From NCBI GenBank assembly GCA_040901865.1, contig JBBDYD010000136.1, positions 29,912 to 88,200 of the forward strand: DNA of 58,289 nt, in the 5' to 3' direction. The stretch is from Bacteroidota bacterium (lineage in GTDB: Bacteria > Bacteroidota > Ignavibacteria > UBA10030). The translations under genes were made by a program, and so were the position numbers. Of the stretch, positions 5,218 through 35,787 are shown piece by piece. The stretch's first letter is position 1; the number at the start of each line of letters is the position of its first letter. The notes beneath the pieces are model-generated. The model was not told the origin of the DNA and did not search any database. It was given only the letters and a program-made list of their open reading frames with translations.

Positions 5218-6756
5218 GTGCCCTCCCTTTCGAAAAAGTGCCTCGGCCGATACCTTGCCGTCTTGTTCTTCATCTTCATAATAGTCCAGATTCAAGCTCG
5301 TGCGACTCAGTATTTTGTCGCTCCCACCGGAAACGATTTGAACGCTGGAACGATGGATTCTCCGTTTGCCACAATCACAAAAGCTCAGTCGGTCATGGTC
5401 GCCGGTGACACCACCTACGTGCGTGGAGGACTCTACGCGCTTGGTGCTACTATCACATTGAACAAGAGCGGCACGGCGGGGAATCGCCTCAACCTGTTCG
5501 CGTATGCCGGTGAACGCCCAGTCCTTGATTTTTCGCAAATGGTTGTGGGACCAAGCAACAGAGGTATTCGTCTCCAAGGTTGGTACTGGACTATTCGCGG
5601 ACTCGACATCAAGGGTGCCGGTGATAATGGAATGCAGATTGACAACGGAGCTTACAGTGTTGTCGAACATTGCGCATTCTATGAGAATCGAGACACAGGG
5701 TTACAACTCAGCAACGGTGCAGCATACAATGAAATCATCAATTGTGATTCCTACAATAATGCTGACACTGCTCAGGGAAACGCCGACGGGTTTGCTCCGA
5801 AACTGGACGTGGGAACCGGAAATTATTTTTTCGGCTGCCGTGCTTGGAACAACTCCGATGACGGATTTGACGGATATATGCGCGGTGCGGACAGCGTCGT
5901 CACGGTGATGGAAAACTGCTGGATTTTCAGTAACGGATATCTGGCCAACGGCACGGCGAGCAGCGGAAACGGAAATGGGTTCAAGATGGGGGGGATGGAT
6001 TTGCTTACCGACAGTCTGCGTCATAACATAACGCTTATCAATTGTCTCGCCTTTGATAATCGCGTCAAGGGATTCGATCAGAACAACAATCGAGGCTCGA
6101 TGACCCTGCTCAATTGTACGGGCTATCGGAACGGAACGAACTTCTCGATTCCCGGGCCTCTCAAAAGCGGCTCGGTCGCAACTATAACGAACGGGCTGGT
6201 TTTGGGCTCTGCAGGCAGTCTTGCAGCTCATGTCGTCCAAACGACTAACAGCTGGATGCCGCAATTCACTGTGACCAGCGGGGACTTCTTGAATATTGAC
6301 ACTACGGGGGTGCGGGGTCCCAGGCAACCGGACGGGAGCCTCCCCGACTTGGGCTTTATGCACCTTGCCCAGGGGAGCCCGCTCATCAACGCCGGGACTG
6401 ATGTCGGTCATCCGTTCAACGGGAGCGGGCCTGATCTCGGGTGCTTCGAAAGCGATTTCCCGGTGTCAGTGCAGAATCCCCACACGTCTCCCCTCGCCTT
6501 CACCCTTCATCAAAACTACCCGAATCCCTTCAACCCGAACACCACGATCACCTTCAGCATTCTCCAACCCGCAATGACCTCGCTGAAGATCTATGACATT
6601 CTGGGTCGGGAAATGGCCACACTGGTGCATCGGGAACTGACCCCGGGGCCGTACGAATTCATGTGGGACGGACAGGGACACTCGAGCGGAACGTATGTAT
6701 ACAGACTTGTCTCCGGTTCAGATGTGCAATCCAACACCATGACCTTAATGAAGTAA
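5218..6756 (+). CDS. Secreted parallel beta-helix pectate lyase-like protein (PL9-like) with T9SS C-terminal sorting domain
   Basis: Signal peptide. YFVAPTGNDLNAG..SPFATI (DUF1565-like N-terminus). Repeated beta-helix turns with NADGF and NNSDDGFDGY. C-terminus QNYPNPFNPNTTITF...GTYVYRL. GTG start preceded by GAGG. Confidence 0.7.
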   Translation: MPSLSKKCLGRYLAVLFFIFIIVQIQARATQYFVAPTGNDLNAGTMDSPFATITKAQSVMVAGDTTYVRGGLYALGATITLNKSGTAGNRLNLFAYAGERPVLDFSQMVVGPSNRGIRLQGWYWTIRGLDIKGAGDNGMQIDNGAYSVVEHCAFYENRDTGLQLSNGAAYNEIINCDSYNNADTAQGNADGFAPKLDVGTGNYFFGCRAWNNSDDGFDGYMRGADSVVTVMENCWIFSNGYLANGTASSGNGNGFKMGGMDLLTDSLRHNITLINCLAFDNRVKGFDQNNNRGSMTLLNCTGYRNGTNFSIPGPLKSGSVATITNGLVLGSAGSLAAHVVQTTNSWMPQFTVTSGDFLNIDTTGVRGPRQPDGSLPDLGFMHLAQGSPLINAGTDVGHPFNGSGPDLGCFESDFPVSVQNPHTSPLAFTLHQNYPNPFNPNTTITFSILQPAMTSLKIYDILGREMATLVHRELTPGPYEFMWDGQGHSSGTYVYRLVSGSDVQSNTMTLMK

Positions 6757-8141
6757 TGAATCCGCGAAGGACAATATATGTCATCGCTGCGCTGCTTCTT
6801 GGCGGCACTCAAGTTTCCTGTTCTGCCCAGGTTGTGGCGTTTCCCGGCGCGGAGGGATTTGGCCGATATACATCGGGCGGGCGGGGCGGACGCGTGATCG
6901 CGGTGACCAACCTGAACGACAACGGACCCGGGAGTCTGCGCAATGCTTTGAAGGAAAGCGGGCCCCGCACGATCGTCTTCCGCGTCTCCGGAACCATCGC
7001 CTTGAAATCCGATCTCATGATTGACAAGGGCGATGTAACCGTTGCCGGACAGACGGCCCCGGGAGACGGAATCTGCATCAGGGACTACAAGACGCAAGTC
7101 AGCGCAACGAACGTGATTATCCGGTTCCTTCGTTTTCGCCTGGGCGACGAATCGGCCCATCCGGAAGACCCTTTCACAGTGATGGGTTCCAGGAACGTTA
7201 TCATCGATCATTGTTCGATGAGCTGGGGGATCGACGAAAGCGGCTCGTTCTATGACAACGAGGATTTTACGCTCCAATGGTCCATCATCAGCGAAAGCTT
7301 GTACAATTCACATCACCCCAAAGGTCCTCACGGATACGGAGGGATCTGGGGCGGCGCACAGGCTTCGTTCCTGTATAATCTTCTCGCGCATCATTCGAGC
7401 AGGAATCCCCGGTTCAACGGCGATCGGACCGCGAAGGTTCAAGGACGGGAATTCGTCGAGTTCAGAAACAACGCTGTGTACAATTGGGGGTTCAAGTGTG
7501 CCTACGGCGGTGAACGCGGACATCAGGACATCATTGCGAATTACTTCAAGCCCGGACCGGCGTCGGTAAACAACGACCGGTTCCTCGAACCGTGGGACGG
7601 AGACGGCAAGTGGTTTCTCAGCGGCAACGTCGTCGAGGGTTCACCGAACATCGCTTCCGACAACTGGGCCGGCGCAGGGGGTGACTATATCGGGGACGGC
7701 CGTGTTGACACTCCGTTTATTTCAAACGCATCGGCCCGGCCGGCAACGCAGGCGTTTGATGCGATTCTCAGATTCTCCGGTGCGATCCTTCCGCAACGGG
7801 ATGTTGTCGATCAGCGGATCGTGAAAGAGGCCGGAAGCGGGACAGCGACGTTCGGTGGAACATCGTATGCGAAGGACCACAAAGTGAAGTCTCCGCTGCC
7901 GCTCGGGATCATTGATTCTCAGGCGGAAGTCGGCGGATGGCCCGAGCTCAGGAGTGTGGAACCTCCCGTTGATTCGGACGAAGACGGAATTCCGGACGCG
8001 TGGGAATCGGCCAACGGCCTGAATCCCCGGGAAGCCCTCGATGGCAGAGAATTGGCCAAATCCGGTTATTCTCACTTGGAAGTGTACCTGAACAGCCTCG
8101 CCGCCGGAAAGTGGCTCGATCCCACCTCTATTAAAGAGTAA
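6756..8141 (+). CDS. Pectate lyase, PL1 family
   Basis: AFPGAEGFGRYTSGGRGGRVIAVTNLNDNGPGSLR and AGQTAPGDGICI are typical PL1 motifs. Start moved to MNPRR, which is followed by a signal peptide. TAATG overlap with the upstream gene. Confidence 0.85.
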   Translation: MNPRRTIYVIAALLLGGTQVSCSAQVVAFPGAEGFGRYTSGGRGGRVIAVTNLNDNGPGSLRNALKESGPRTIVFRVSGTIALKSDLMIDKGDVTVAGQTAPGDGICIRDYKTQVSATNVIIRFLRFRLGDESAHPEDPFTVMGSRNVIIDHCSMSWGIDESGSFYDNEDFTLQWSIISESLYNSHHPKGPHGYGGIWGGAQASFLYNLLAHHSSRNPRFNGDRTAKVQGREFVEFRNNAVYNWGFKCAYGGERGHQDIIANYFKPGPASVNNDRFLEPWDGDGKWFLSGNVVEGSPNIASDNWAGAGGDYIGDGRVDTPFISNASARPATQAFDAILRFSGAILPQRDVVDQRIVKEAGSGTATFGGTSYAKDHKVKSPLPLGIIDSQAEVGGWPELRSVEPPVDSDEDGIPDAWESANGLNPREALDGRELAKSGYSHLEVYLNSLAAGKWLDPTSIKE

Positions 8142-8147
8142 ACGATC

Positions 8148-9557
8148 ATGAACTGCCGGAAACAATCCATCCTCCCCATTCTCCTCCTGGCGGCAGTGGC
8201 TTTACTCAGCTGTTCTGCCCAAACGGCTTCGACACAAGCGATTGAAGGATGGGCCGCTCTGCCGGGGATCCTGAAATCCATTCAGGCCCCTGTCTTTCCC
8301 GATCGCGATTTCAACATAACGCACTACGGCGCCAAAGGCGACGGGACCGCGGATTGCACCGAAGCGATCAGAAAAGCCATCGATGCGTGCAATGCGGTGG
8401 GCGGCGGAAGGGTGGTCGTGGCGGGCGGTGTATATCTCACGGGGGCGATCCACCTGAAGAGCAACGTCAATCTATACGTGGCAAAGGACGCAACGCTCCG
8501 ATTCAGCACAAACCCTCAACACTATCTTCCCGTTGTCTACACGCGCTGGGAAGGCGTCGAATGCATGAACTACTCTCCGCTGATCTACGCCTACCGGCAG
8601 GAAAATATTGCCGTGACGGGAGAGGGAACGCTCGACGGTCAGGGCTCAACCAGTCATTGGTGGTGGTGGAAGGGTGGAGAGAAGAACGGCTGGAAAAAGG
8701 GGATGCCCCAGCAGAAACGCGACCGGGACTCGCTGTTCGCCATGGGCGAACGCGGCGTGCCGGTGGCACAGAGAGTCTTCGGCGAAGGCCATTATCTCAG
8801 GCCCAGCTTCTTTCAGCCCTACGAGTGCAAAAACATTCTCGTGCAGGGCGTGACCTTCGAAGATTCTCCGATGTGGTTCCTTCATCCCGTGCTCTCCGAA
8901 AACATCTCCGTCCTCAATGTCACCGTCAAAGGCCTGGGCCCCAACAACGACGGATGCAATCCCGAATCTTCAAAGAACGTCCTGATCAAGGGGTGCTATT
9001 TTGACACCGGCGACGACTGCATCGCGATTAAATCCGGCCGCAATGCGGACGGAAGGCGGGTCGGGGTTCCGAGCGAGAACATTGTGATTCAGGATTGCCA
9101 GATGAAAGACGGTCATGGCGGTGTGGTGATGGGAAGCGAGATGTCGGGCGGAGTGAGGAATGTGTATGCCGAACGGTGCACGATGGACAGCCCGAATCTC
9201 GACCGGGCATTGCGCATCAAAACTAATTCCGTCCGGGGCGGATTCGTTGAGAACGTCTTTATGAGAGATGTGGAAGTGGGGGAGGTCGCTCACGCGGTCA
9301 TCAAGATCAACTTCTTTTATGAAGAGGGGGACGCCGGTAAATTTCCCCCGGTCGTTCGGAATATCCACGTGAAGAATGTGAAGAGCAAAAAAAGCCCGTA
9401 CGCGCTTTGGATCAGAACCTATGACCATTCTCCCGCCACGGGGATCTTCATCGAAGATTGCGAATTCGAGAATGTGGCAAATCCGAATGTGATCGAGAAT
9501 GTGAAGGATTTGAAGTTCACCAACGTCCGGATCAACGGCAAGCCGGTGTCGAACTGA
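8148..9557 (+). CDS. Glycoside hydrolase family 28 (polygalacturonase / exo-poly-alpha-galacturonosidase)
   Basis: YGAKGDGTADCTEAIRKAID, NNDGCNPES, GDDCIAIKSG and GHGGVVMGSE are GH28 signature blocks. Signal peptide present. Confidence 0.9.
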   Translation: MNCRKQSILPILLLAAVALLSCSAQTASTQAIEGWAALPGILKSIQAPVFPDRDFNITHYGAKGDGTADCTEAIRKAIDACNAVGGGRVVVAGGVYLTGAIHLKSNVNLYVAKDATLRFSTNPQHYLPVVYTRWEGVECMNYSPLIYAYRQENIAVTGEGTLDGQGSTSHWWWWKGGEKNGWKKGMPQQKRDRDSLFAMGERGVPVAQRVFGEGHYLRPSFFQPYECKNILVQGVTFEDSPMWFLHPVLSENISVLNVTVKGLGPNNDGCNPESSKNVLIKGCYFDTGDDCIAIKSGRNADGRRVGVPSENIVIQDCQMKDGHGGVVMGSEMSGGVRNVYAERCTMDSPNLDRALRIKTNSVRGGFVENVFMRDVEVGEVAHAVIKINFFYEEGDAGKFPPVVRNIHVKNVKSKKSPYALWIRTYDHSPATGIFIEDCEFENVANPNVIENVKDLKFTNVRINGKPVSN

Positions 9558-9576
9558 CCGGCAGAGTATCCTCAAC

Positions 9577-12459
9577 ATGAGCGTTCATAGTCATATCATC
9601 CAGTGCTGCAGCTTTCTTGCCCTGTTCCTGCTGGCCGTAGTCGGGAATCTCTCGGCCCAGACATCAGGCAAGATCTCGGGCACCGTGGCGGACGCGGCAA
9701 CGGGTGAGATACTCCTGGGTGTTAACGTCTTCATTTCCGGGACAACAATCGGCGCCGCCACGGATCTGGAGGGGACGTACTTCATTCTGAACATTCCCCC
9801 CGGGGAATATGATTTGACCGCCTCGATGGTCGGGTACCAGCAGACCGTCATGCGCGGGGTCATTGTGCATGCGGGCAGGACGACCGAAGCAGATTTTCGC
9901 CTTTCCGAAGCGATCCTGGCCATGGATGAAGTCGTGATCCAGGCCGTTCGACCGGATGTCGAAAAAGAGAAGACATCAACGAGTGCCATTATCCGCTTTG
10001 ACGAAGTGCAGTCGCTTCCCGGGATCAGGGATGTCGGCAGTATCCTGTCATTGGCTGCAGACGTCACCGACGGTCATTTCCGGGGCGGCCGTTTAGGGGA
10101 GGAGTACTACACACTTCAGGGAATGGGCATCGTCAACCCTCTGGATAATTCATCGGCGTTCTTGCCGATCATGAGCGGTGTGGAGGAAGTGGAGGTCATC
10201 ACCAGCGGATTCGGGGCGCAATACGGTAACGCCCAATCCGGAGTCGTGAATATCTCTATGAAAGAGGGAAGGATTGACCGGTGGACGACGAGGTTTGAAT
10301 CGCGAACCCGCACTCCCGGCCGAAAGCATTTCGGCCCGAGCGCCTATGATCAGAACGCGAATCTGTACCTCTCACTTCTCCTGAGCGGAGACGTCTGGCT
10401 CAGCGGAGATCCGGGCGCCGATACGCCTCAGCCGTACTACGGAAGCATGGGGTCGGGGCTGACGAGCAGTTATGCGCAAGATACTCTAACGCAGGTTGCT
10501 GTGGCCCAGGCGCTGTGGCGGCAGACGCGCCGCGATCTTGACCGACCGTACGGGTCAGAGCTTGATTACTCTGTGGAGGTTGCCACGGGCGGACCGATCG
10601 CTCCTGGCCTCCGCATGTTCATGGCTCTTCGTACGAATACCGAGTGGCCCGTGTTCCCGGTGGAAAAGCCGGATATTCAATATCAGGCGATGGGAAATGT
10701 TGTGTACGATATCGGTGAAGGAAAGTCCCTTCGGTTCAGCGGCGGACTTACAGAAGAGACAGCAAACGTTTTTCCCGGAGCAAACAGTGTGGGCGGATAT
10801 CAGCGCTGGCTCTGGGACCGGATCACCGGCATCAATTACCGCAAGAGCACCAACGCCCAGATTGGAGTCCGATTCACCCACGCGCTGAGTCAGAGCACGT
10901 TCTATGAATTGAAACTCAACTCACTGTTCACAACCAACAAGGTCGGGGCAACCCCGGTCCCGGGTTTTATTCCCGACTCTCTCAGTTTTGCCTGGCCGAC
11001 GGCCGTCCTCTCGTTTTCGAACAACAACTCTCCCGACGGGATCAATTATCAGGCCGGGTATGACAACTTTAGAACCGAACAGACACGAACCGTCTCATTT
11101 GACGGTTCTCTCACAAGTCAGATCACCAACTCTCATCTGCTAAACGCAGGAATGCAGATCAACGCCTACCTGATCGAAACCTCGAATGTCCTGAATCTTC
11201 GTTCAAACAGATATATCGAACAATACACCGGGACTCCGTTCGAAGGGGCCATCTATTTCCAGGATAAGATGGAATTCGAAGGGCTCATCGCGAATGCAGG
11301 CATTCGGCTCGATGTGTGGAATTCCGGCCGGGAGTACTACACAGATCTTTACACTCCGTTCCTTGCGGCCGATTCTGTCGGTGAATTCCATCCTGAATCT
11401 GCCCCCAAGAAGGAATCCCCCATTATCGGGCGTCTTCAGCCGCGTATCGGTGTGTCCTTCCCGATTTACGAGGGGACCGTGTTCCATCTCAACTATGGCT
11501 CATTCATGCAGCGCCCGTCGTTCCAATACGTGGTTTCTGAACGCGTGGCTCAACTGAACAATAGCCCTGTGATTCTGGGTAATGCCCGCCTCGAGCCGGA
11601 GGTAACCAACAGCTACGACATCGGCGTCATGCAGGCGCTCGGGGATGGTTTTACGCTCGACGTGAGCGGGTACTATAAAGACGTCAAGAATCTCCTTCAG
11701 CAAGCGAACTTCACGGATGACCGGGCCGGGAACCTTGTGAGCTCTTATTTCAACCTGGATTATGCCGACATTCGCGGATTCCGCGTGGCGCTGACGAAAC
11801 GGCGCGGCGATCTGACTGGATCGGTCAATTATCAGTACAGTTATGCGACCGGAAGAAGCGCTACGGCAACGGCGGCAACTCCCGCATTTTACCGCGACAC
11901 CACCGGAGCCGTGACGACGGATCTTGCGAACGTCCCGACGCGGGATATCATTCTCGATTTCGACCGCACGCACAACCTTGTCATCAAACTCGGATACGAA
12001 ACGGAGGATGCGTGGGGGCCGGAAGTGTTCGGATTCCGCCCGTTCTCCAATATGAATATTTCAACGATCTCTTTCGTGCGCAGCGGCCGGCCGTATACAT
12101 CTCCCTCCAACATCAAACTCATCAATGTGCTTCGGACGCCGTGGGAATACAACATGGATCTGCGCATCACCAAGCGAGTGGCGGACTTTTTCGGAGTTTC
12201 GGCGACATTCTACATGGAAGTGTTCAATCTGTTCGACAGCCGGATCCTGAATTATTCCTACATCTTTCAGCGGCCAACGGCCACGAATCCCAATCTCCCT
12301 CTTCAATACTACGAGAGCTATCCCGTCGACGACCGGAACAATGGGATCCGCTACTGGTGGGATAAAGGAAGACAGGGTCCGTTTGCCGTGGATCAGTCAT
12401 TCCTGATCTACAGCAACCAGCCGCGTTCGTACAGCTTCGGAATGGTGATCGAACTGTGA
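9577..12459 (+). CDS. TonB-dependent receptor-like outer membrane protein with N-terminal carboxypeptidase regulatory-like domain
   Basis: 960 aa. Signal peptide. GKISGTV.D..TGE.L.GVNV......GA.TD..G.Y pattern, then a plug-like region and a long beta-barrel ending in an aromatic-rich C-terminus. Confidence 0.8.
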   Translation: MSVHSHIIQCCSFLALFLLAVVGNLSAQTSGKISGTVADAATGEILLGVNVFISGTTIGAATDLEGTYFILNIPPGEYDLTASMVGYQQTVMRGVIVHAGRTTEADFRLSEAILAMDEVVIQAVRPDVEKEKTSTSAIIRFDEVQSLPGIRDVGSILSLAADVTDGHFRGGRLGEEYYTLQGMGIVNPLDNSSAFLPIMSGVEEVEVITSGFGAQYGNAQSGVVNISMKEGRIDRWTTRFESRTRTPGRKHFGPSAYDQNANLYLSLLLSGDVWLSGDPGADTPQPYYGSMGSGLTSSYAQDTLTQVAVAQALWRQTRRDLDRPYGSELDYSVEVATGGPIAPGLRMFMALRTNTEWPVFPVEKPDIQYQAMGNVVYDIGEGKSLRFSGGLTEETANVFPGANSVGGYQRWLWDRITGINYRKSTNAQIGVRFTHALSQSTFYELKLNSLFTTNKVGATPVPGFIPDSLSFAWPTAVLSFSNNNSPDGINYQAGYDNFRTEQTRTVSFDGSLTSQITNSHLLNAGMQINAYLIETSNVLNLRSNRYIEQYTGTPFEGAIYFQDKMEFEGLIANAGIRLDVWNSGREYYTDLYTPFLAADSVGEFHPESAPKKESPIIGRLQPRIGVSFPIYEGTVFHLNYGSFMQRPSFQYVVSERVAQLNNSPVILGNARLEPEVTNSYDIGVMQALGDGFTLDVSGYYKDVKNLLQQANFTDDRAGNLVSSYFNLDYADIRGFRVALTKRRGDLTGSVNYQYSYATGRSATATAATPAFYRDTTGAVTTDLANVPTRDIILDFDRTHNLVIKLGYETEDAWGPEVFGFRPFSNMNISTISFVRSGRPYTSPSNIKLINVLRTPWEYNMDLRITKRVADFFGVSATFYMEVFNLFDSRILNYSYIFQRPTATNPNLPLQYYESYPVDDRNNGIRYWWDKGRQGPFAVDQSFLIYSNQPRSYSFGMVIEL

Positions 12460-14693: not shown

Positions 14694-14696
14694 ACG

Positions 14697-15764
14697 ATGA
14701 GCCGATCAGCAACATATGCACGGGCAACGAAGGCTGCGAGCATTAGAAGGAAGCTGCTTGCGGTTCTCGTGGGAGTGCTCCTTGCGAGCGCTCCCGCTGT
14801 TGCCCAAAAGGTGGGGAGCACCGCGATGCAGTTCCTTAAGGTGATGCCCAGCGCCCGGGCGACTGCACTTGGCGAAGCGTACAGCGTCTGGGCTTCGGGT
14901 GCGGAGGCGGTTGCCTGGAATCCGGGAGGCGTGGCGCTCGTGCTGAATCACGAAGTCTCGGCGACATACATTGACTGGTTGTTTGATACCCGGCAAGGAG
15001 CTCTTTCGTACGCGCTTTCACTTGGCGACATCGGCGCCCTTGGTCTGCAGGTTCAGTACGTGGACTTCGGCGAGTTCGAGGAAACCACAAATCAGCGTCC
15101 GTTCATCAGCGACCCGGACAACCCGGGGCTCACCGGCAGGACGTTCCGCCCTTTTAGCGCGCTCTTCGGAGTGACCTATGCCCGTTCTCTGACAGACAGG
15201 TTCTCGGTCGGGTTGGGAGTCAAATACGTTCACGAATCTCTCTTTGGCGGTCAAAGCATCAATGCAATGGTTACGCAGGGAGTGTTTGAAAGCGTGAACA
15301 CCTGGGGAAACGGCGTTTTATTCGATTTTGGCATGCGGTATAACACCGGTTATCGGACGATCCATGTGGCGGCCTCGGTGCAGAATTTCGGGGCAGACGT
15401 GACATTTGCCAGGGAATCGAATCCGGTTCCGCTCCTGTTCCGGTTTGGCATCGCGGCCGATCTGATGGGGCCGAATGCGCTTCTTGCAATTGACGAGGGA
15501 AACCGGCTGAGTGCCGCATTCGATATTTTCCATCCCAACGATTATTCCCAGCAGGGTCATGTCGGCGTCGAGTACGAATTTGCTTCGGTCATTGCCCTGC
15601 GGGCCGGATACAAGCTCAACTATGATTTTGAGGGGCTGACCTTCGGAGGCGGAATCAAGCACCAGCTGGCGGGTGTGGGCCTTTCCCTCGATTACAGCTA
15701 TGGTTCCATGGGAACGTATTTGGGCAGCGTTCAGCGCATCAGTATCGGTGCCGTGCTGCCATGA
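14697..15764 (+). CDS. PorV/PorQ-like outer membrane beta-barrel protein
   Basis: 355 aa. Signal peptide. GSTAMQFLKV.PSARATALGEAY...GAEAV.WNPGG is the characteristic N-terminal block of the PorV/PorQ family. Alternating beta-strand pattern throughout. Confidence 0.65.
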   Translation: MSRSATYARATKAASIRRKLLAVLVGVLLASAPAVAQKVGSTAMQFLKVMPSARATALGEAYSVWASGAEAVAWNPGGVALVLNHEVSATYIDWLFDTRQGALSYALSLGDIGALGLQVQYVDFGEFEETTNQRPFISDPDNPGLTGRTFRPFSALFGVTYARSLTDRFSVGLGVKYVHESLFGGQSINAMVTQGVFESVNTWGNGVLFDFGMRYNTGYRTIHVAASVQNFGADVTFARESNPVPLLFRFGIAADLMGPNALLAIDEGNRLSAAFDIFHPNDYSQQGHVGVEYEFASVIALRAGYKLNYDFEGLTFGGGIKHQLAGVGLSLDYSYGSMGTYLGSVQRISIGAVLP

Positions 15765-17245
15765 GAATGAGACCGCGAATGTCCATAGCGATTCCGGTTT
15801 GCCTGCTCACGCTCAGCATCGCTGCGACAGGTTCTCTCAACGCTCAGGGATACAACGGTCCTCTGACGATCCAGGGACTCGAGCAGACGACGATGCACTC
15901 CGTTTCCGCACGGGCAACGGGAGGGATTTCTCTGGGCATCACGAGCGACGTTGGGGCGATGTTTCAGAATCCGGCTTCATTGTATCAGCTTTCCAATCCG
16001 CAAATTTCCGCCGGCGGTTTTCTGCAGGTCAGAAGCCAGAGGCAAACCCAGCACTTTGCGCCTGTCCGATATTATTCCAACTTCAGTCTCCTGATGGAAG
16101 GGTTGACGCACCTCATTCCGGATCCGTCGTCCGGCGGATTCACAGTGCGGGACACGGTGCAACGGCCCTATGACGCCATTCGTCCGAATTGGGCGCGCTC
16201 CGGAAATCACACTGCTCCGCTGCAGGGCCTGCTTGCCGTTCCGTTCACTATCGGGGAGTTCAAGGTGGTGGCGGGAGCCGGAGTCGTGGAGTATGCGAAT
16301 GTGGATCATTTCTATCAGAACAACAATGTTCTCATGCCGGCGCTGTTCCTTCAGCGGCCTCTTCCAACGTTCAGGCCGCCCGACAATGCTCCGATCATCG
16401 CTGATTGGTATCAATACATCCAATCCCGCGAAGGGGCGATCCGCGGGTACGGCGGAGCGGTATCGGCGGGGTGGGATGAGATCGGATTCTCGTTCGGGAT
16501 CAGCGGAATGATCCTCAACGGAAGTTCGGACGACTTCGAGAGTTTGGTGAGCAGAGGCAGGCTGACGTTCTATTCGAATGCCTTTCGCCTGGATTCCGTT
16601 TACAGCCGCACGACGAGCACGGGAACGTCCGACTATGAGGGAGAAGAATTCACGCTCAACGCGGTGTATCTCGGCCGGTTTGTCAGGATTGCAGCAACTG
16701 CCACCCTGCCGATGGAGATCCGGAGAATCTACTCGATGGAAACAAGTACCGATTCGACCGGAATACCGATTGTGACATCGTCGACCGGCAGGGACCGTAT
16801 TCAGATCCCACTCCGGGCAACAGTTTCCCTTGTGCTGATGCCGCGGGAGAATCTCACGCTCGGGCTGGAGTATAAGACCCGGCCGTATGCGTCAGCCGTG
16901 TACCGATCAGCTGCCGGAGTCGAATCGTCCCCGTGGCTTTCGTCGTCGATCGTCCGGATCGGCGCAGAGTATCGTCCGTTGGACTGGCTTTCACTGCGAG
17001 GCGGTCTTCGGGGGCAGTCGGAGGTCTTTCAGCCGGACGGAAATCCGATCGAAGGCGAACCCGTGACGTTCTCGGTTTATACTGCCGGGTTTGGCGTCAA
17101 CTACGCGGGTGTCAGGTTCAATCTTGCGTACGAATATGGAAGAATGAAGTATCAGGACGTCTGGGGAAGTGCCGTGAGCTTCAACAGTTACAGGCGAAAT
17201 ACGGTTGCGGCGAACATTGAGTACGATCTTCCGGTGCTCTGGTGA
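15761..17245 (+). CDS. Outer membrane beta-barrel protein, distantly PorV/FadL-like, unknown function
   Basis: 494 aa. Signal peptide. SARATGGISLG...MFQNPASL echoes the block in the preceding gene. C-terminal aromatic residue. ATGA overlap with the upstream gene. Confidence 0.5.
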   Translation: MRMRPRMSIAIPVCLLTLSIAATGSLNAQGYNGPLTIQGLEQTTMHSVSARATGGISLGITSDVGAMFQNPASLYQLSNPQISAGGFLQVRSQRQTQHFAPVRYYSNFSLLMEGLTHLIPDPSSGGFTVRDTVQRPYDAIRPNWARSGNHTAPLQGLLAVPFTIGEFKVVAGAGVVEYANVDHFYQNNNVLMPALFLQRPLPTFRPPDNAPIIADWYQYIQSREGAIRGYGGAVSAGWDEIGFSFGISGMILNGSSDDFESLVSRGRLTFYSNAFRLDSVYSRTTSTGTSDYEGEEFTLNAVYLGRFVRIAATATLPMEIRRIYSMETSTDSTGIPIVTSSTGRDRIQIPLRATVSLVLMPRENLTLGLEYKTRPYASAVYRSAAGVESSPWLSSSIVRIGAEYRPLDWLSLRGGLRGQSEVFQPDGNPIEGEPVTFSVYTAGFGVNYAGVRFNLAYEYGRMKYQDVWGSAVSFNSYRRNTVAANIEYDLPVLW

Positions 17246-17309
17246 TCCGCCGCATCACAACAAGGATGTCATAATTCAAGATCCATTCACCAACCTCAGG
17301 AGGTGCATC

Positions 17310-19130
17310 ATGAGGACTTTCTACGTTGTTATTCTTCTCACGTGTTCTGTCGCGATGGTCTTCGCCCAGAGTGCGGGAGATTATCGTTCGGTTGCGAGCG
17401 GCAACTGGAGCGTCTCAGGAACCTGGCAGACGTTTAACGGCTCGATCTGGGGCGCGGCAGCATCGCCTCCCACCGGATCCGAAGTGATCACCGTACTAGC
17501 TGCGGACTCGGTGTACGTCGATGTTGCAGTGACGATCACCGACACGCTGAAGCACCAGGGAATCGTTGCCGGAGGAGTGAATCTGACGGTCGGCAACGGC
17601 GGCGTGTACCAGTACGATCGGGATGCCGGGTCACTTCCGGCGGGTACAACCTGGGCAACAGGGTCGACGTACTATGTTACCGGAATTACCGCGACGGCCC
17701 CTGCGAACAGAAATCAGAATTTCTACAACATCGTTCTCAACACCCCAAACATGGCTTCGAATCGGGATCTGGGTTTCGACAGTACCACCGTTTCCGGAAA
17801 TATCACCGTCCTGGCATCGGGAACCGGTTCGATCCGATGGCAAATGGGTGCTCCGCTGGCTGGTGATACAATCATCGCATGGCTTTTCGGTGACATCATC
17901 CAGCAAGGGGGACAATTCTCTTCGAACGGAACAAGCAACGCAAACAGCCATGTTGTGATCCATCACTATGGCAACACGACCGTTACGGGTGGCAATTTCT
18001 CCGTCAGCCGCGGCTCGCAGGGAGGTACCGGCAGCGTGCGATGGTATCTGTACGGCGACTTCTCCATGTCGAATGCAACAACGCAGAATTCGAATGTCTC
18101 CGGGGCGAGGTTCATTTTTGCAGCGCAAGGCACGCAGACACTCGAGCTGGGCAGCGGAAATACGCTCACCGCCTTCCCGATGGAGATCGACAGCGGAACA
18201 ACGGTTGACATGGGGTTGAGCAAGTTACGAGGGAGCGGAAGGTTTGTCGTTCATGACGGGGCATACCTGGCAACAGCGGAACCGGGCGGAATCGACAGTG
18301 CAGTAAGCGTCAGCGGGACTCCGTTCACCTTGAGCAAGAAGGCTGGATACTTTTTCAATGGAGTGGTGAACCAGGTAACGGGGACAAGAATGCCGGATAC
18401 GGTCTCTGTTCTTGTCACTGACAACCCGGACACGCTTACCCTTAGTGACACCGTTGCGGTTACCAACGCACTCATACTGAGGAGCGGTGTGCTGAACAAT
18501 ACTCATCCGTTTACGCTCGGACCCGATGCATCTCTTGGTACCGGTCATGCTAACGGGATTGCCGGCATTGCGGATCAGCTTGTTGTACCGTTTGATCCCT
18601 CCAATGTGACGAGATTCGATTTTGTCGGATTGGCCAACCAGGTGACGAGTGCGGCAATGCCGGATACCATTGTCAACCTGACGATCGATAATCCGGATAC
18701 CGTCTTTCTTTCGCTGGCCACGCATATCACGGGGATTCTCAGACTGAAGGCCGGCATTTTTGATAATACGATCCCATTCACCCTCGGGCCGAGTGCCACC
18801 ATTTCGTATGAAGGCGGTATGCTGAGAATCGCAACCTCGGCAGGAAACGCGGAGAATGTGATTCCGGAATCGTTCTTTGTCGAACAAAACTATCCGAATC
18901 CGTTCAACCCCGCGACGACCATTCGCTACGGAATATCCGAAGCATCCAACGTTTCGGCTGTTGTGTACAACATGCTTGGTCAGAAGGTCACCACCGTGTT
19001 CGAAGGCAGAAAAGAGCCGGGAACGCATCAACTGCGGTTCAACGCTTCCAATCTGCCCTCCGGCGTGTACCTGCTCCGCATCCAGGCCGGAAGCAACTCG
19101 ATGGTCAGGCGGATGGTGTTGATGAAATAG
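17310..19130 (+). CDS. Secreted repeat protein with T9SS C-terminal sorting domain, unknown function
   Basis: Start at MRTFYVV, preceded by AGGAGG. Signal peptide. Two tandem units of about 85-90 aa (NQVT...MPDT...DNPDT...PFTLGP). C-terminus EQNYPNPFNPATTIRY...GVYLLRI. Confidence 0.7.
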   Translation: MRTFYVVILLTCSVAMVFAQSAGDYRSVASGNWSVSGTWQTFNGSIWGAAASPPTGSEVITVLAADSVYVDVAVTITDTLKHQGIVAGGVNLTVGNGGVYQYDRDAGSLPAGTTWATGSTYYVTGITATAPANRNQNFYNIVLNTPNMASNRDLGFDSTTVSGNITVLASGTGSIRWQMGAPLAGDTIIAWLFGDIIQQGGQFSSNGTSNANSHVVIHHYGNTTVTGGNFSVSRGSQGGTGSVRWYLYGDFSMSNATTQNSNVSGARFIFAAQGTQTLELGSGNTLTAFPMEIDSGTTVDMGLSKLRGSGRFVVHDGAYLATAEPGGIDSAVSVSGTPFTLSKKAGYFFNGVVNQVTGTRMPDTVSVLVTDNPDTLTLSDTVAVTNALILRSGVLNNTHPFTLGPDASLGTGHANGIAGIADQLVVPFDPSNVTRFDFVGLANQVTSAAMPDTIVNLTIDNPDTVFLSLATHITGILRLKAGIFDNTIPFTLGPSATISYEGGMLRIATSAGNAENVIPESFFVEQNYPNPFNPATTIRYGISEASNVSAVVYNMLGQKVTTVFEGRKEPGTHQLRFNASNLPSGVYLLRIQAGSNSMVRRMVLMK

Positions 19131-19177
19131 TGAAGAGTGAAGAGTGAAGAGTGAAGAGTAAAGAGTAAAAAGAAAAG
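19129..19177. repeat. Heptanucleotide tandem array (AGTGAAG)4 decaying to AGTAAAG AGTAAAA AGAAAAG
   Basis: Seven consecutive 7-nt units fill the whole intergenic gap between the stop at 19130 and the ATG at 19179. Confidence 0.9.
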
Positions 19178-19178
19178 C

Positions 19179-20393
19179 ATGAAGTGGATTGCCTACATTT
19201 CCCTCGTTGCGTGTGTTGGTTGCGCGCAACAAGGTGTGAAAGATGCTCCCAGCGGGAAGCCGTGGTCCGAACGGATCGCGGCTTCTTTCCTGGCGCGGTA
19301 TCCTGATGCCGTTCCGTATAACGCCGGCAATCCGGAGTTGCGATGGAACTATGAACAGGGATTGATGTTTGTCGGATTCCTCCGTCTCACCGACGCAACT
19401 GGGAACCGGATGTATGCCGATGTTGTCCGCAAGAATCTCGACCTCTATGTGGGAGATGACGGGTCGATCAGAACGTATAAGAAGAGTGACTATAATCTGG
19501 ACATGATCGCATCCGGCAGGGCGTTGTTGAGCACCTACCGAACCACCGGCAATCCAAAGTACCGTGCGGCGGCTGACACGCTGAGAAGCCAGCTGCGGGA
19601 GCAGCCGCGGACAGCGTCCGGCGGATTCTGGCACAAAAAGGTTTATCCGGATCAGATGTGGCTTGACGGGATCTTCATGGCCGAGCCGTTCTACACAGAG
19701 TACTCCGTACTGACGGGCGATACAGCGGCGTTTGCGGACATTGCGCATCAGATCCTGCTCCTTGAGCAGAAAGCGCGGGATTCGAAGACCGGACTGATCT
19801 ACCATGGCTGGGATGAAAGCAAGAATCAGCAATGGGCGAATCCGGAAACCGGCGTCTCTCCGAATATTTGGGGAAGAGCGCTGGGATGGTACGCAATGGG
19901 GATTCTCGATGTGCTTGATTCGTTTCCGGAGAATCACCGGAGCCGCAAGGATCTGATCGCCGTGTTTCAACGGCTTTCAGCCGCATTGATCAATTTTCAG
20001 GATCCCAAAACAGGTTTGTGGCACCAGGTTGTTGATCAACCCGGAAGAGAAGGCAATTATCTCGAGGCCTCAGCATCAGCGATGTTCACGTATGCTCTGG
20101 CAAAGGGGGTGCGGAAAGGATATCTGGACGCAAAATACGAGGCCCATGCACGAAGGGCGTTCAACGGGATTCTTACAGAGTTTGTCACTGAAAACGAACA
20201 GGGGTTGGTCGATCTCCATCATGTGTGTGCTGTTGCGGGATTGGGCGGGAATCCCTATCGAGACGGGAGTTACCAGTACTACGTCGGCGAGCCGAGGCGA
20301 ACGAATGATTTCAAGGGAGTCGGACCGTTCCTCCTGGCAGCAATGGAAATCGAGAAGCTGGATAATAGGAAGGAGAAGTCACCACCTCCATGA
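19179..20393 (+). CDS. Unsaturated rhamnogalacturonyl hydrolase (GH105, YteR/YesR-like)
   Basis: 404 aa. W.YE.G......L...TG, GGFWHKK.YP.QMWLDG.FM and WGRA.GW blocks are typical of GH105/GH88-fold hydrolases. Confidence 0.8.
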   Translation: MKWIAYISLVACVGCAQQGVKDAPSGKPWSERIAASFLARYPDAVPYNAGNPELRWNYEQGLMFVGFLRLTDATGNRMYADVVRKNLDLYVGDDGSIRTYKKSDYNLDMIASGRALLSTYRTTGNPKYRAAADTLRSQLREQPRTASGGFWHKKVYPDQMWLDGIFMAEPFYTEYSVLTGDTAAFADIAHQILLLEQKARDSKTGLIYHGWDESKNQQWANPETGVSPNIWGRALGWYAMGILDVLDSFPENHRSRKDLIAVFQRLSAALINFQDPKTGLWHQVVDQPGREGNYLEASASAMFTYALAKGVRKGYLDAKYEAHARRAFNGILTEFVTENEQGLVDLHHVCAVAGLGGNPYRDGSYQYYVGEPRRTNDFKGVGPFLLAAMEIEKLDNRKEKSPPP

Positions 20394-29198: not shown

Positions 29199-29947
29199 AT
29201 CTCTTCGACCTCAAAGGAAAAACCGCCGTTGTCACAGGCGCCAGCACCGGACTCGGCCGCGCGATGACGCTCGCGCTTGCAGCGTCGGGCGCCGACATTC
29301 TTCTTGTTGACCACTCGAAGAAAGAAGAAACGGCCCGTGAAGTAAGAACCCTGGGCCGCAAGGCAGTTGCGATGGAGGCAGATCTTGCGCGCATGGATTC
29401 GGCAGAGAAGATCGTGGGGAAGGCGATCGTCGAATTCGGAAAGGTCGACATTCTGGTGAACAACGCCGGGATTATCCGCAGGGCTCCAGCGCTGGAATTC
29501 TCTGAACAGGATTGGGATGATGTTCTGGCTGTGAATGCGAAATCGGTTTTCTTTCTGGCCCAGGCGGCCGCGCGTGATATGATGAAGCGGAAATCCGGGA
29601 AGATCATCAACGTTGCATCCCTGCTTTCGTTTCAGGGAGGTATTCTGGTGCCGTCCTATGCTGCGAGCAAAGGCGCTGTCGCACAGCTTACCAAGTCCCT
29701 CGCCAACGAATTGGCCGCGTATGGCATCACGGTAAACGCGATCGCTCCCGGCTATATGGAAACCAACAATACAAAGGCGCTCCGGGAGGATCCGGTTCGC
29801 TCAAAGTCCATCCTCGAACGCATTCCCGCGGGGCGATGGGGCGTCCCTGATGATCTGGGCGGCGCGGTGGTGTTTCTTGCCTCGTCCGCGTCAGACTATG
29901 TCAACGGCCATGTGCTGGTGGTTGACGGCGGATGGATGGCCCGGTAA
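29195..29947 (+). CDS. kduD: 2-dehydro-3-deoxy-D-gluconate 5-dehydrogenase
   Basis: 250 aa SDR. Long collinear identity with E. coli KduD as I recall it (DILVNNAG.IRR..ALEFSE.DWDDV, KIIN.AS.LSFQGGI.VPSY.ASK, RIPAGRWG.P.DL.G..VFLASSASDYVNG....VDGGW.AR). Confidence 0.9.
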   Translation: MNLFDLKGKTAVVTGASTGLGRAMTLALAASGADILLVDHSKKEETAREVRTLGRKAVAMEADLARMDSAEKIVGKAIVEFGKVDILVNNAGIIRRAPALEFSEQDWDDVLAVNAKSVFFLAQAAARDMMKRKSGKIINVASLLSFQGGILVPSYAASKGAVAQLTKSLANELAAYGITVNAIAPGYMETNNTKALREDPVRSKSILERIPAGRWGVPDDLGGAVVFLASSASDYVNGHVLVVDGGWMAR

Positions 29948-29970
29948 CACACTTAACTCAGGACACGTCA

Positions 29971-35780: not shown

Positions 35781-35787
35781 TGTCGTT

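What the first reader, a model, noticed from the sequence alone, without database searches (positions are those of the whole stretch)
5218..20393. Pectin utilisation locus built on a SusD-less architecture: lyases/hydrolases, TonB-dependent receptor, unknown 745-aa partner, two PorV-like barrels and a T9SS cargo
Nine co-directional, mostly overlapping or closely abutting genes encode PL9-like, PL1, GH28, a 960-aa TonB-dependent receptor, a 745-aa unknown secreted protein, a PorV/PorQ-like barrel, a second related barrel, a 607-aa repeat protein with a T9SS sorting domain, and GH105. A LacI regulator follows.

Functionally this looks like a polysaccharide utilisation locus, but no SusD-like (TPR-rich lipoprotein) gene follows the receptor. 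That position is taken by proteins of unknown function that appear to be surface-displayed via T9SS. This would be a non-Bacteroidia solution for glycan capture and is worth characterising as a system.
Basis: partly seen in the sequence, partly recalled or inferred. Interest (0 to 1): 0.7.

Follow-up and report, generated by a model that had tools for sequence, protein, structure and literature searches.

The report
SusD-free pectin locus, novel uptake triad
A pectin-degrading gene cluster from an uncultured Ignavibacteria-like bacterium lacks the SusD partner used by Bacteroides and instead carries a TonB-dependent outer-membrane transporter, a 745-residue secreted protein of unknown fold and a PorV-like barrel; this trio recurs in about 150 loci from nine lineages beside different nutrient-degrading genes, so it looks like an undescribed, general nutrient-capture machine.

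Summary
All nine genes and the LacI regulator lie at the stated coordinates, tightly packed (gaps of -4 to +61 nt), with the predicted families.

The locus is larger than reported. It runs to about 39.3 kb and adds a second receptor, another T9SS cargo, a TRAP transporter and the hexuronate pathway.

The 745-aa protein is not SusD. None of 35 family members hits a SusD Pfam model. It has no lipobox. A confident AlphaFold model (pLDDT 86) is mostly beta and has no SusD match among its top 50 PDB hits.

The key result is synteny. Receptor, then p745-like, then PorV/PorQ-like barrel is conserved in 67/68 and 62/67 close loci and 72/78 distant ones. The lineages include Ignavibacteria, KSB1, Calditrichia, Rhodothermales, Kryptoniota, Marinimicrobia, Latescibacterota, Gemmatimonadota and Fidelibacterota, often with several copies per genome. 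Neighbours vary: pectin, alginate, sulfated-glycan and rhamnoside enzymes, or inner-membrane transporters.

The components co-diverge (r = 0.86-0.95). The p745 CTD resembles the uncleaved PorZ CTD and is the protein's most conserved part.

Best reading: a T9SS-exported surface partner, docked on its own PorV-like barrel, serves the transporter as a functional analogue of SusD. The literature searched holds no description. No function was tested experimentally.

The parts
5218..6756 (+). PL9 pectate lyase with a T9SS type A CTD (secreted or surface depolymerase)
   Evidence: Pel9A-like_beta_helix 108 bits; PelN-like 240 bits; TIGR04183 28.1, cut-off 23
6756..8141 (+). PL1-like pectate lyase (the ORF opens at 6663; the probable ATG at 6756 overlaps the PL9 stop) with a signal peptide
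   Evidence: NCBIfam PelZ E 4e-41, below cut-off; no Pfam hit
8148..9557 (+). GH28 galacturonidase with a lipobox-like signal (LLSC), probably periplasmic
   Evidence: Glyco_hydro_28 109 bits; BT4155-like alpha-galacturonidase 377 bits, below its 800 cut-off
9577..12459 (+). TBDR1: 960-aa TonB-dependent transporter of a distinct family, with a CarboxypepD_reg N-terminal extension, a TonB-box-like DEVVIQA, plug motifs and a barrel. First member of the conserved triad.
   Evidence: Homologs carry Pfam Plug and TonB_dep_Rec_b-barrel. SusC model TIGR04056 scores only 54 against a 368 cut-off.
12456..14693 (+). p745: 745-aa secreted protein, not a lipoprotein. It has a new beta-rich N-terminal domain (about residues 22-530), an FN3-like domain (about 535-645) and an atypical PorZ-like T9SS CTD (about 646-745). 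Second member of the triad.
14697..15764 (+). PorV/PorQ-family 14-strand-type barrel, module-specific paralog (proposed anchor for the p745 CTD). Third member of the triad.
   Evidence: NF033709 208 bits, cut-off 90; below the PorQ (92.9/220) and PorV (73.8/250) equivalog cut-offs; profile against PorV 6h3i E 3.6e-15; each paralogous module has its own copy
15761..17245 (+). p494: FadL/BamG-like outer-membrane barrel, an accessory found in the Ignavibacteria/KSB1/Calditrichia/Rhodothermales subfamily
   Evidence: BamG NF053685 E 2e-8, below cut-off; profile against BtBAM chain F 9hiv E 3.4e-8 and TbuX/TodX; the L011 homolog passes Pfam Toluene_X; present in 59/63 close loci
17307..19130 (+). 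p641/607-aa T9SS type A cargo of unknown passenger fold; specific to the pectin group
   Evidence: Por_Secre_tail 47 bits; nothing else in Pfam or PDB
19179..20393 (+). GH105/GH88 unsaturated uronyl hydrolase with a lipobox-like signal
   Evidence: Glyco_hydro_88 365 bits
20390..21475 (+). LacI-family regulator
   Evidence: LacI HTH plus Peripla_BP domains
21654..24641 (+). TBDR2: second TonB-dependent transporter, Xanthomonas/Caulobacter carbohydrate type, with a CarboxypepD_reg extension (outside the finding's coordinates)
   Evidence: Plug 51 bits; TIGR01782 302 bits against a 310 cut-off
24715..26412 (+). p597: T9SS type A cargo that follows TBDR2; the pair is conserved in 8 related loci
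   Evidence: TIGR04183 40.5 bits; synteny
26518..32139 (+). DUF4861/BT_3233-family protein, UxaC, KduD, KduI and UxaE (hexuronate and unsaturated-uronate catabolism)
32136..34934 (+). TRAP transporter DctP, DctQ-like (33146-33649) and DctM: inner-membrane uptake of uronates
   Evidence: DctP and DctM Pfam hits; the DctQ-like 167-aa hydrophobic ORF is assigned by position only
34953..39344 (+). D-mannonate oxidoreductase (SDR type), PdxB-like 2-hydroxyacid dehydrogenase, LarA-like nickel-pincer putative hexonate epimerase, and a PfkB KDG-kinase-like gene

Best explanation
The region is the outer-membrane and extracellular half of a roughly 34-kb pectin (homogalacturonan) utilisation locus. Its uptake core is a conserved, co-evolving module that replaces SusCD.

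Proposed mechanism, in order:
1. T9SS-secreted PL9, and perhaps the 607-aa cargo, cut pectate outside the cell.
2. p745 is exported by the T9SS. It stays on the cell surface because its atypical, PorZ-like CTD is not removed and docks on the dedicated PorV/PorQ-family barrel encoded immediately downstream.
3. This p745-barrel pair sits beside the TBDR1 transporter, possibly bridged or stabilised by the FadL/BamG-like p494 barrel. It captures oligogalacturonides and hands them to the TonB-energised transporter, so it is a functional analogue of the SusD lid built from unrelated parts.
4. Periplasmic GH28, GH105 and the PL1-like enzyme finish depolymerisation.
5. The TRAP system imports the monomers.
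6. UxaC/UxaE/UxuB and KduI/KduD/KdgK catabolise them, under LacI control.

Shown here by computation: gene content, operon packing, family and fold assignments, synteny, co-divergence, and the CTD conservation pattern.

Inferred: T9SS export of p745, CTD retention, physical complex formation, ligand binding, and direction of transport.
For: Pectin pathway and operon packing.

Triad synteny:
- TBDR1 lies upstream of p745 in 67/68 evaluable close loci, PorV-like downstream in 62/67, and p494 in 59/63.
- The triad is intact in 72/78 distant loci.
- It also holds in the loci of the five 27-29%-identity relatives, as far as their short contigs allow.

The module travels with changing catabolic sets:
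- pectin;
- alginate: PL6, PL17, SDR, MFS and GntR, including cultured Rhodocaloribacter litoris;
- sulfatase/PL6/GH29; Rubrivirga has the quartet beside PL6 lyases;
- GH106 rhamnosidase;
- inner-membrane transporters DUF6785/6784 and SSF.
This argues for import.

Co-evolution:
- Identity matrices of the four proteins correlate at r = 0.86-0.95, highest for TBDR1 against p745.
- Within-MAG paralog modules differ in all four proteins in parallel, so each module keeps its own PorV-like barrel.

Conservation:
- p745 is the most conserved protein of the locus: 82% to L001, against 47-78% for the other genes.
- Its CTD is its most conserved region (0.69 against 0.62), whereas the PL9 CTD in the same loci is far less conserved than its passenger (0.40 against 0.60).
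- The p745 CTD matches the PorZ CTD (PDB 5m11 E 5e-4; NF052228).

Precedents:
- PorZ keeps its CTD to bind PorQ. Type B cargo is anchored by cognate PorP/SprF barrels encoded next door (PMC10202324).
- BamG shows a FadL-type barrel acting as an attachment platform for surface proteins on a larger barrel (PMC12611786, PMC12578637).

Other points:
- p745 has a Sec signal without a lipobox, so a lipid anchor is excluded.
- Its N-domain loosely resembles the non-catalytic beta-supersandwich domains of GH116, GH94 and dextran dextrinase.
Against: - There is no experimental evidence for any step.
- The p745 CTD is below the curated cut-offs of both the type A and type B models, so T9SS dependence is itself inferred.
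- Structural matches of the N-domain are weak (TM at most 0.24), so no ligand-binding site can be named.
- Few polar residues are invariant across the whole superfamily. This fits a scaffold, but it does not show binding.
- The window's TBDR1 fails Pfam Plug and barrel detection. Its TBDT identity rests on weak NCBIfam hits, visible motifs and homologs.
- Two distant loci (L134, L137) appear to lack the PorV-like gene.
- The triad occurs in Gemmatimonadota-labelled MAGs, where I could not confirm that a T9SS exists.
- Correlated divergence is partly expected from shared phylogeny alone.
- A second, conventional carbohydrate transporter (TBDR2) sits in the same locus and could be the main pectin importer.
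Confidence: 0.55

Rival explanations
1. The PorV-like and FadL-like barrels are locus-dedicated T9SS shuttle or anchor proteins for the locus's secreted cargo in general (PL9, p745, p641, p597). Under this reading p745 is a free-standing surface glycan-binding protein or enzyme that does not physically partner the transporter, and the adjacency reflects co-regulation only.
For: The window encodes four CTD proteins. PorV-family barrels are known cargo shuttles or anchors (PMC10202324). The locus also has a second receptor, TBDR2, paired with another CTD cargo and no barrel.
Against: The order receptor, p745, barrel is fixed over about 150 loci and nine lineages, while the other CTD cargo come and go. 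TBDR1 and p745 show the tightest co-divergence, r = 0.95. Start and stop codons overlap by 4 nt. In many distant loci p745 is the only CTD-like protein near the barrel.
Confidence: 0.2
2. p745 is a surface-anchored enzyme of a new family, for example an endo-acting lyase or hydrolase that makes transport-sized oligosaccharides at the mouth of the transporter, rather than a binding or lid protein.
For: It is conserved more strongly than the known enzymes of the locus. In the closer subfamilies it is associated mainly with uronate-containing or anionic polymers that lyases attack. It has remote fold similarity to carbohydrate-active enzymes.
Against: The similarity is to the non-catalytic N-terminal beta-sandwich of those enzymes; their (alpha/alpha)6 catalytic domain is absent. 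Across the superfamily the invariant positions are mostly Gly, Pro and Trp, with few candidate catalytic residues. Distant members sit in loci without polysaccharide enzymes.
Confidence: 0.12
3. The triad works outward (secretion or surface assembly of some product) or in outer-membrane biogenesis, by analogy with BamG and PorV, and is not an importer.
For: PorV and BamG relatives act in export and assembly (PMC10202324, PMC12611786). The receptor family is atypical.
Against: The receptor has a TonB-box-like motif and plug motifs. Neighbours are consistently catabolic enzymes and inner-membrane importers: TRAP, MFS, SSF, DUF6785. There are several substrate-matched paralogs per genome.
Confidence: 0.05

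Closest known systems
SusC/SusD (RagA/RagB) pairs of Bacteroidota polysaccharide utilisation loci
   Same: A roughly 1000-aa TonB-dependent transporter with a CarboxypepD_reg N-terminal extension, immediately followed by a co-evolving, surface-located partner gene. It is embedded in substrate-specific CAZyme loci and has several paralogs per genome.
   Different: The partner is not a lipoprotein, is not alpha-helical/TPR and matches no SusD model. The receptor is not in the SusC family: TIGR04056 scores 54 against a 368 cut-off. One or two FadL-family barrels are obligatory extra components. Surface delivery is presumably by T9SS rather than lipoprotein export.
T9SS attachment pairs: PorZ-PorQ, PorU-PorV, and type B CTD cargo with cognate PorP/SprF barrels (e.g. 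SprB-SprF)
   Same: A CTD-bearing protein encoded next to a dedicated PorV-superfamily barrel. The p745 CTD matches the PorZ CTD, and the barrel scores better against PorQ than against PorV. The CTD is unusually conserved, as expected if it is retained.
   Different: Here the pair is fused into an operon with a TonB-dependent transporter and nutrient-catabolic genes, not with secretion or gliding functions. The barrel is below the PorQ and PorV equivalog cut-offs and is not in the PorP/SprF family. The passenger domain is unrelated to PorZ beta-propellers or SprB.
BamG-BamH of the Bacteroidota BAM complex
   Same: A FadL-family 14-strand barrel acts as a platform that holds surface proteins on a larger barrel. 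The p494 profile matches BtBAM chain F (9hiv), and NCBIfam BamG hits p494 weakly.
   Different: p494 is far below the BamG cut-off (33.7 against 250). It is encoded in catabolic loci with several paralogs per genome. Its proposed partner barrel is a TBDT, not BamA.
SusD-independent carbohydrate TBDT loci (CUT loci) of Xanthomonas, Caulobacter and marine Gammaproteobacteria
   Same: TonB-dependent glycan uptake without SusD. TBDR2 in this window nearly reaches that subfamily's cut-off: TIGR01782 302 against 310.
   Different: Those loci have no conserved T9SS cargo or PorV-like partner. TBDR1 barely matches that subfamily (E 7e-4, 18 bits against a 310 cut-off).
Rhodothermus marinus xylan locus Rmar_1070-1073 (PMC6987092)
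   Same: A TonB-dependent receptor followed by hypothetical proteins, two of which are predicted to be cell-attached through the Xyn10A-type C-terminal domain. The paper lists this arrangement without interpreting it.
   Different: I could not retrieve these sequences, so homology to the triad is untested. That locus also contains a canonical SusC/SusD pair.

Membership tests
SusD/RagB | Match to the SusD_RagB / SusD-like Pfam models | tested here: not met
   No hit for p745 at E<=0.01. None in 35 diverse family members at E<=1. None for p494, p641 or p597.
SusD/RagB | N-terminal lipoprotein signal (Cys lipobox) | tested here: not met
   The p745 N-terminus...LTLAASVQAQVRDW, has no Cys. The family's only invariant cysteines are C103 and C684.
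SusD/RagB | All-alpha TPR-containing fold | tested here: not met
   The AF2 model (pLDDT 86.3, pTM 0.88) is mainly beta. No SusD/RagB chain appears in the top 50 Foldseek PDB matches.
SusD/RagB | Gene immediately downstream of, and co-evolving with, the TonB-dependent transporter | tested here: met
   4-nt overlap with TBDR1; adjacency in 67/68 and 72/78 loci; r = 0.95.
SusC/RagA (TIGR04056) | Full-length match above the curated cut-off | tested here: not met
   TBDR1 scores 54.4 bits against 368, and only over the N-terminal extension. TBDR2 scores 68.1.
TonB-dependent transporter | Plug domain plus 22-strand barrel, and a TonB box | tested here: met
   The window protein shows plug motifs (HFRGGR..EEYY, GFGAQYGNAQSGVVNISMKEG), a TonB-box-like DEVVIQA, and weak NCBIfam receptor hits. 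Family members carry Pfam Plug and TonB_dep_Rec_b-barrel. The window protein itself fails Pfam Plug and barrel detection.
PorV/PorQ family (NF033709) | Score above the subfamily cut-off | tested here: met
   208 bits against 90. The profile matches PorV 6h3i at E 3.6e-15.
PorV proper / PorQ proper (equivalogs NF033710, NF033711) | Score above the equivalog cut-off; one housekeeping copy per genome | tested here: not met
   73.8 against 250 and 92.9 against 220. Each module in a MAG has its own copy, 48-56% identical to the others.
FadL/Toluene_X / BamG family (p494) | Match to the family models | tested here: inconclusive
   The window protein scores 33.7 against 250 for BamG, and PorV_fam is sub-threshold. 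The profile hits BtBAM chain F at 3.4e-8 and TbuX/TodX at 7e-6 to 1e-4. The L011 homolog passes Pfam Toluene_X, 42.4 against 29.7.
T9SS type A CTD cargo (TIGR04183 / PF18962) | C-terminal sorting domain above cut-off | tested here: met
   PL9 28.1 against 23; p641 49.3; p597 40.5.
T9SS CTD cargo (p745 itself) | Type A or type B CTD above cut-off | tested here: inconclusive
   Type A 17.6 against 23; CHU_C 16.7 against 27. 28/35 members hit CHU_C and 21/35 hit Por_Secre_tail, all sub-threshold. PorZ CTD match at E 5e-4. The AF2 model shows a C-terminal beta-sandwich.
T9SS cargo | Export depends on the T9SS; fate of the CTD (cleaved or retained) | not testable with these tools
   Needs genetics and proteomics.
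Canonical PUL (PULDB sense) | Adjacent SusC/SusD pair | tested here: not met
   No SusD model hit in any ORF annotated across the window.
Pectin/homogalacturonan utilisation locus | Pectate lyases, GH28, GH105, the hexuronate and KDG pathway, a uronate transporter and a regulator in one cluster | tested here: met
   The PL1 assignment is only sub-threshold.
Pectin utilisation locus | Induction by, and requirement for growth on, pectin or polygalacturonate | not testable with these tools
   The organism is uncultured. No expression data were found.

The most novel reading that the evidence does not exclude
The receptor, p745 and PorV-like triad is a phylum-spanning, T9SS-dependent counterpart of SusCD. 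In this reading, the extracellular substrate-capturing lid of a TonB-dependent transporter is a type IX secretion cargo of a new fold, held permanently on the cell surface through its uncleaved CTD by a dedicated PorV/PorQ-type barrel. In one subfamily a second, BamG-like barrel acts as a bridge. This multi-barrel nutrient-uptake machine would be the main high-affinity uptake device of Ignavibacteria, KSB1, Calditrichota, Rhodothermales, Kryptoniota, Marinimicrobia, Latescibacterota and Gemmatimonadota for polysaccharides and other nutrients.
Probability: 0.4. Interest if true: 0.9.

Novelty: new variant of a known kind. Interest (0 to 1): 0.78.

Why it matters
Glycan capture by SusCD is the paradigm for how Bacteroidota feed. 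How the sister lineages of the FCB superphylum take up polymers is largely unknown. Many of these lineages are abundant in sediments, soils, hot springs and the ocean, and almost all are uncultured.

The triad would give a recognisable genomic marker, analogous to the susC/susD pair, for predicting substrate-uptake loci in these phyla. Its variable flanks already indicate pectin, alginate, sulfated-glycan and rhamnoside loci.

It would also extend the known roles of the T9SS and of PorV/FadL-type barrels, from secretion, gliding and BAM to nutrient import. And it defines a large protein family with a new fold and no Pfam or NCBIfam model: about 22 full-length clusters at 50% identity, and 171 plus 327 relatives counted in two overlapping species-genome scans.

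Two cultured strains carry the module in alginate-type (PL6) lyase loci, so the hypothesis can be tested directly.

Tried and rejected
- First AF2 run of p745, with 24 close homologs, gave pLDDT 52 and was discarded. Adding 50%-cluster representatives fixed it.
- Exact-sequence lookup of the window's p745 found no record, so the source contig could not be traced.
- The two receptors share only the N-terminal domain. Their partners p745 and p597 are unrelated, and PorV-like against p494 gives only marginal BLASTP similarity.
- p641 and p597 have no PDB or Pfam relatives beyond the CTD, whether searched with single sequences or with the p641 profile. There is no DNA tandem repeat inside p641.
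- The candidate LacI operator CGATAAAGTTATCG upstream of PL9 does not recur: 3 hits with up to 2 mismatches against 1.8 expected. Dropped.
- Sigma-70 promoter and terminator scans were no better than shuffles.
- The strict search for group-specific residues in p745 gave only 5 positions, too few to define a binding site.
- Eight literature searches found no description of the triad. This cannot exclude subscription-only papers.
- I rejected the idea that the barrel is the housekeeping PorV, and the idea that adjacency is chance.

Full report
OBSERVATION

They are tightly packed, with gaps of -1, 6, 19, -4, 3, -4, 61, 48 and -4 nt. HMM searches give the following:
- A PL9 pectate lyase with a T9SS type A CTD.
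- A PL1-like protein. This rests only on a sub-threshold PelZ match (E 4e-41); there is no Pfam hit.
- GH28.
- A 960-aa receptor (TBDR1) with a CarboxypepD_reg N-terminal domain and weak TonB-receptor matches.
- A 745-aa protein (p745) with nothing but a sub-threshold T9SS CTD.
- A PorV/PorQ-family barrel (NF033709, 208 bits against a cut-off of 90).
- A 494-aa barrel (p494) with weak BamG/PorV-family matches.
- A 607-aa T9SS type A cargo (ORF p641, true start about 17307).
- GH88/GH105.
- LacI.

THE LOCUS IS LARGER THAN REPORTED

Downstream of LacI the locus continues to about 39.3 kb:
- A second receptor, TBDR2 (21654-24641). It has a Plug domain and reaches 302 bits against the 310-bit cut-off of the TonB-Xanth-Caul subfamily.
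- Another T9SS cargo, p597.
- A DUF4861/BT_3233-family protein, UxaC, KduD, KduI and UxaE.
- A TRAP transporter: DctP, a DctQ-like ORF and DctM.
- An SDR-type D-mannonate oxidoreductase, a PdxB-like dehydrogenase, a LarA-like putative hexonate epimerase and a KDG-kinase-like PfkB.
Together these make a complete route from extracellular pectate to central metabolism. The region is a pectin utilisation locus.

p745 IS NOT SusD

- No SusD/RagB Pfam model matches p745, nor any of 35 diverse family members at E<=1.
- The N-terminus is a Sec signal without a lipobox cysteine.
- A first AF2 model from a shallow alignment was poor (pLDDT 52). With 35 sequences reaching down to 27% identity, the model is confident (pLDDT 86.3, pTM 0.88).
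- The model shows a beta-rich N-terminal region of about 500 residues, an FN3-like domain (about 535-645) and a C-terminal beta-sandwich (about 646-745).
- Foldseek against the PDB returns no SusD/RagB chain in the top 50. The N-terminal part aligns only loosely (TM at most 0.24) with the non-catalytic beta-supersandwich domains of GH116, GH94 phosphorylases and dextran dextrinase. The C-terminal part aligns with FN3 tandems and PorZ.
- By sequence, the last ~110 residues match the CTD of P. gingivalis PorZ (5m11, E 5e-4; NF052228).
- Family members hit the type B (CHU_C, 28/35) and type A (21/35) CTD models, always below cut-off.

THE OTHER MODULE COMPONENTS

- TBDR1 has a TonB-box-like DEVVIQA after the N-terminal domain and typical plug motifs. 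Homologs carry Pfam Plug and TonB_dep_Rec_b-barrel.
- TBDR1 is not in the SusC family (54 bits against a 368 cut-off) and reaches the cut-off of no curated receptor subfamily.
- The PorV-like profile matches PorV 6h3i at E 3.6e-15, but it scores below the PorV and PorQ equivalog cut-offs.
- The p494 profile matches chain F of the B. thetaiotaomicron BAM complex (9hiv/9hj3) and the FadL-family TbuX/TodX. NCBIfam BamG also hits it weakly, and a homolog passes Pfam Toluene_X.

SYNTENY

p745 has hundreds of relatives, named only "T9SS sorting domain protein" or "hypothetical". At 50% clustering there are about 22 full-length representatives.

Close set (86 genome loci):
- TBDR1 lies immediately upstream in 67/68 evaluable cases.
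- The PorV-like gene lies downstream in 62/67, and p494 in 59/63. At least one miss (L008, where tblastn finds the PorV-like gene) is an artefact of my ORF picking, and others probably are too.

Flanks differ by p745 clade:
- Pectin enzymes.
- An alginate-type set: PL17-like, heparinase-N, KduD-like SDR, MFS and GntR.
- A sulfatase/PL6/GH29 set.

Two cultured complete genomes carry the quartet beside PL6 lyases; in the first, PL17 and an SDR complete a classic alginate-utilisation set:
- Rhodocaloribacter litoris: receptor 945 aa, p745 homolog 760 aa, PorV-like 346 aa, p494-like 419 aa, then PL6, PL6, PL17 and an SDR.
- Rubrivirga sp. IMCC45206.

Distant set:
- Relatives at 27-29% identity keep the triad. 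One example sits next to a GH106 rhamnosidase in Kryptoniota; another sits next to GWxTD, DUF6785 and DegT genes in a marine contig.
- A genome scan seeded with these distant members found 327 relatives. In the 78 new loci fetched, the triad is intact in 72.
- These loci come from Kryptoniota, Marinimicrobia, Latescibacterota (at least five copies in one genome), Gemmatimonadota, Fidelibacterota, Rhodothermales, KSB1 and Melioribacteraceae.
- Four of the six exceptions are contig ends or a split gene. Two appear to lack the barrel.
- Neighbours there are DUF6785/DUF6784 membrane proteins (30 loci), a small OMP barrel just upstream of the receptor (27 loci), SSF symporters, GFO/IDH/MocA oxidoreductases, PhyH dioxygenases, PLP enzymes and GH130-like proteins.

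The invariant unit is therefore a triad. p494 and p641 are subfamily or substrate-specific additions. The module is a general uptake device, not a pectin-specific one.

CO-EVOLUTION

- Pairwise identity matrices of the four proteins over 43 loci correlate at r = 0.86-0.95, highest for TBDR1 against p745.
- In MAGs with two modules, all four proteins differ in parallel: receptor about 48%, p745 42-55%, PorV-like 48-56%, p494 30-42%. Whole modules therefore duplicated and diverged, and the barrel is not the housekeeping PorV.
- In the nearest locus, p745 is the best-conserved protein of the whole cluster: 82% against 47-78% for the others.
- Its CTD is its best-conserved region (0.69 against 0.62 mean pairwise identity). 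The PL9 CTD in the same loci is much less conserved than its passenger (0.40 against 0.60).
- Universally conserved positions are densest in the CTD and sparsest in residues 200-400.

MECHANISM PROPOSED

Established T9SS biology supplies the precedent (PMC10202324). PorZ and PorU keep their CTDs and are held by PorQ and PorV. Type B cargo is anchored by cognate PorP/SprF barrels encoded next door.

By analogy, p745 is exported by the T9SS and retained on its own PorV/PorQ-type barrel through a conserved, uncleaved CTD. Because it is translationally coupled to, and co-evolving with, the transporter, it most likely forms a surface complex that captures substrate for TonB-driven import. That makes it a functional analogue of SusD, but not a homolog. 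p494 may act as a BamG-like platform or bridge.

What is shown: gene content, folds and families, synteny, co-divergence and CTD conservation. What is inferred: export route, CTD retention, complex formation, ligand binding and transport direction.

RIVALS

1. The barrels serve the locus's T9SS cargo generally, and p745 is independent of the receptor.
2. p745 is a new surface enzyme.
3. The module works in export or biogenesis.

The fixed gene order, the tight TBDR1-p745 co-divergence, the lack of a catalytic-type domain and the constant association with importers and catabolic genes argue against these. None is excluded without experiments.

COMPARISON AND NOVELTY

- The module works like SusCD but fails every SusD membership test except gene position. 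The receptor fails the SusC model.
- SusD-less TBDT loci are well known in Proteobacteria, and TBDR2 here is of that type. The absence of SusD alone is therefore not novel.
- What appears new is the conserved coupling of a distinct TBDT family to a T9SS-type cargo of a new fold and a dedicated PorV-family barrel.
- Eight full-text searches found no description.
- The nearest published hint is the uninterpreted Rmar_1070-1073 arrangement in the R. marinus xylan locus (PMC6987092).
- SusCD also exists in Ignavibacteria and Rhodothermales (PMC3534657, PMC6987092), so the two systems coexist.

CAVEATS

- MAG taxonomic labels are taken from record titles, and some are probably wrong (Synechococcus, Chitinophagales, Cytophagia, Acidobacteriota).
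- The window's own organism is unknown. The closest loci are Ignavibacteria-labelled MAGs at 79-82% p745 identity, and the window's GC content is about 0.54.
- I did not verify that a T9SS is present in Gemmatimonadota.
- My ORF calling in the fetched loci was heuristic.

Noticed in passing
window 3569-3596, 19125-19177, 21492-21571, 39394-39458, 40988-41024, 53946-54027: Short heptanucleotide tandem arrays (e.g. AGTGAAG x5-7, GTCAGAA x10) occupy many intergenic spacers. Two of them are inside the pectin locus (p641/GH105 and LacI/TBDR2). The same unit, AGTGAAG, recurs at 19129 and 53950. They are reminiscent, from memory, of cyanobacterial STRR heptamer repeats. Their function is unknown.
   Followed up: partly
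window 21654-26412: A second SusD-less pair: a Xanthomonas/Caulobacter-type TonB-dependent receptor (TIGR01782, 302 bits against a 310 cut-off) followed by a 565-aa T9SS type A cargo of unknown fold. It has no barrel partner. The pair is conserved in L004, L005, L015, L017, L018, L030, L039 and L042.
   Followed up: partly
window 34953-38222: The hexuronate cluster contains a LarA-like nickel-pincer putative hexonate epimerase (NF052594, 170 bits, below cut-off). It sits next to a PdxB-like 2-hydroxyacid dehydrogenase with DUF3410 and an SDR-type mannonate oxidoreductase. This may be a variant sugar-acid epimerisation route. The LarA-like gene is also linked to UxaE, GH28 and the SDR in L008.
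   Followed up: no
window 5182-5195: A perfect palindrome, CGATAAAGTTATCG, lies 23 nt upstream of the PL9 start. It is a possible operator but is not repeated elsewhere in the window.
   Followed up: yes
L108-L146 and others (e.g. L144:15751-17745, L130:5541-6260): In Latescibacterota and Gemmatimonadota triad loci, a 664-aa DUF6785+DUF6784 protein (30 loci) and a 239-aa OMP_b-brl protein directly upstream of the receptor (27 loci) are recurrent partners. They may be the inner-membrane permease and an extra outer-membrane component of those versions.
   Followed up: partly
L082 (CALRIY020000009.1) and L086 (JBLMZA010000054.1): Triad loci appear on contigs of MAGs labelled Synechococcus sp. UW140 and Acidobacteriota. 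These are probably binning contamination or mislabelling rather than true hosts.
   Followed up: no
L163 (CAYRZX010000202.1): Two complete receptor, p745 and PorV-like triads lie in tandem on one Gemmatimonas-labelled contig, which directly illustrates module duplication.
   Followed up: no
window 3792-5048 (-): An ECF-type sigma factor with DUF6596 and a C-terminal TPR is divergently transcribed from the pectin locus. No anti-sigma gene or receptor signalling domain is evident, so a link to the locus is unclear.
   Followed up: no
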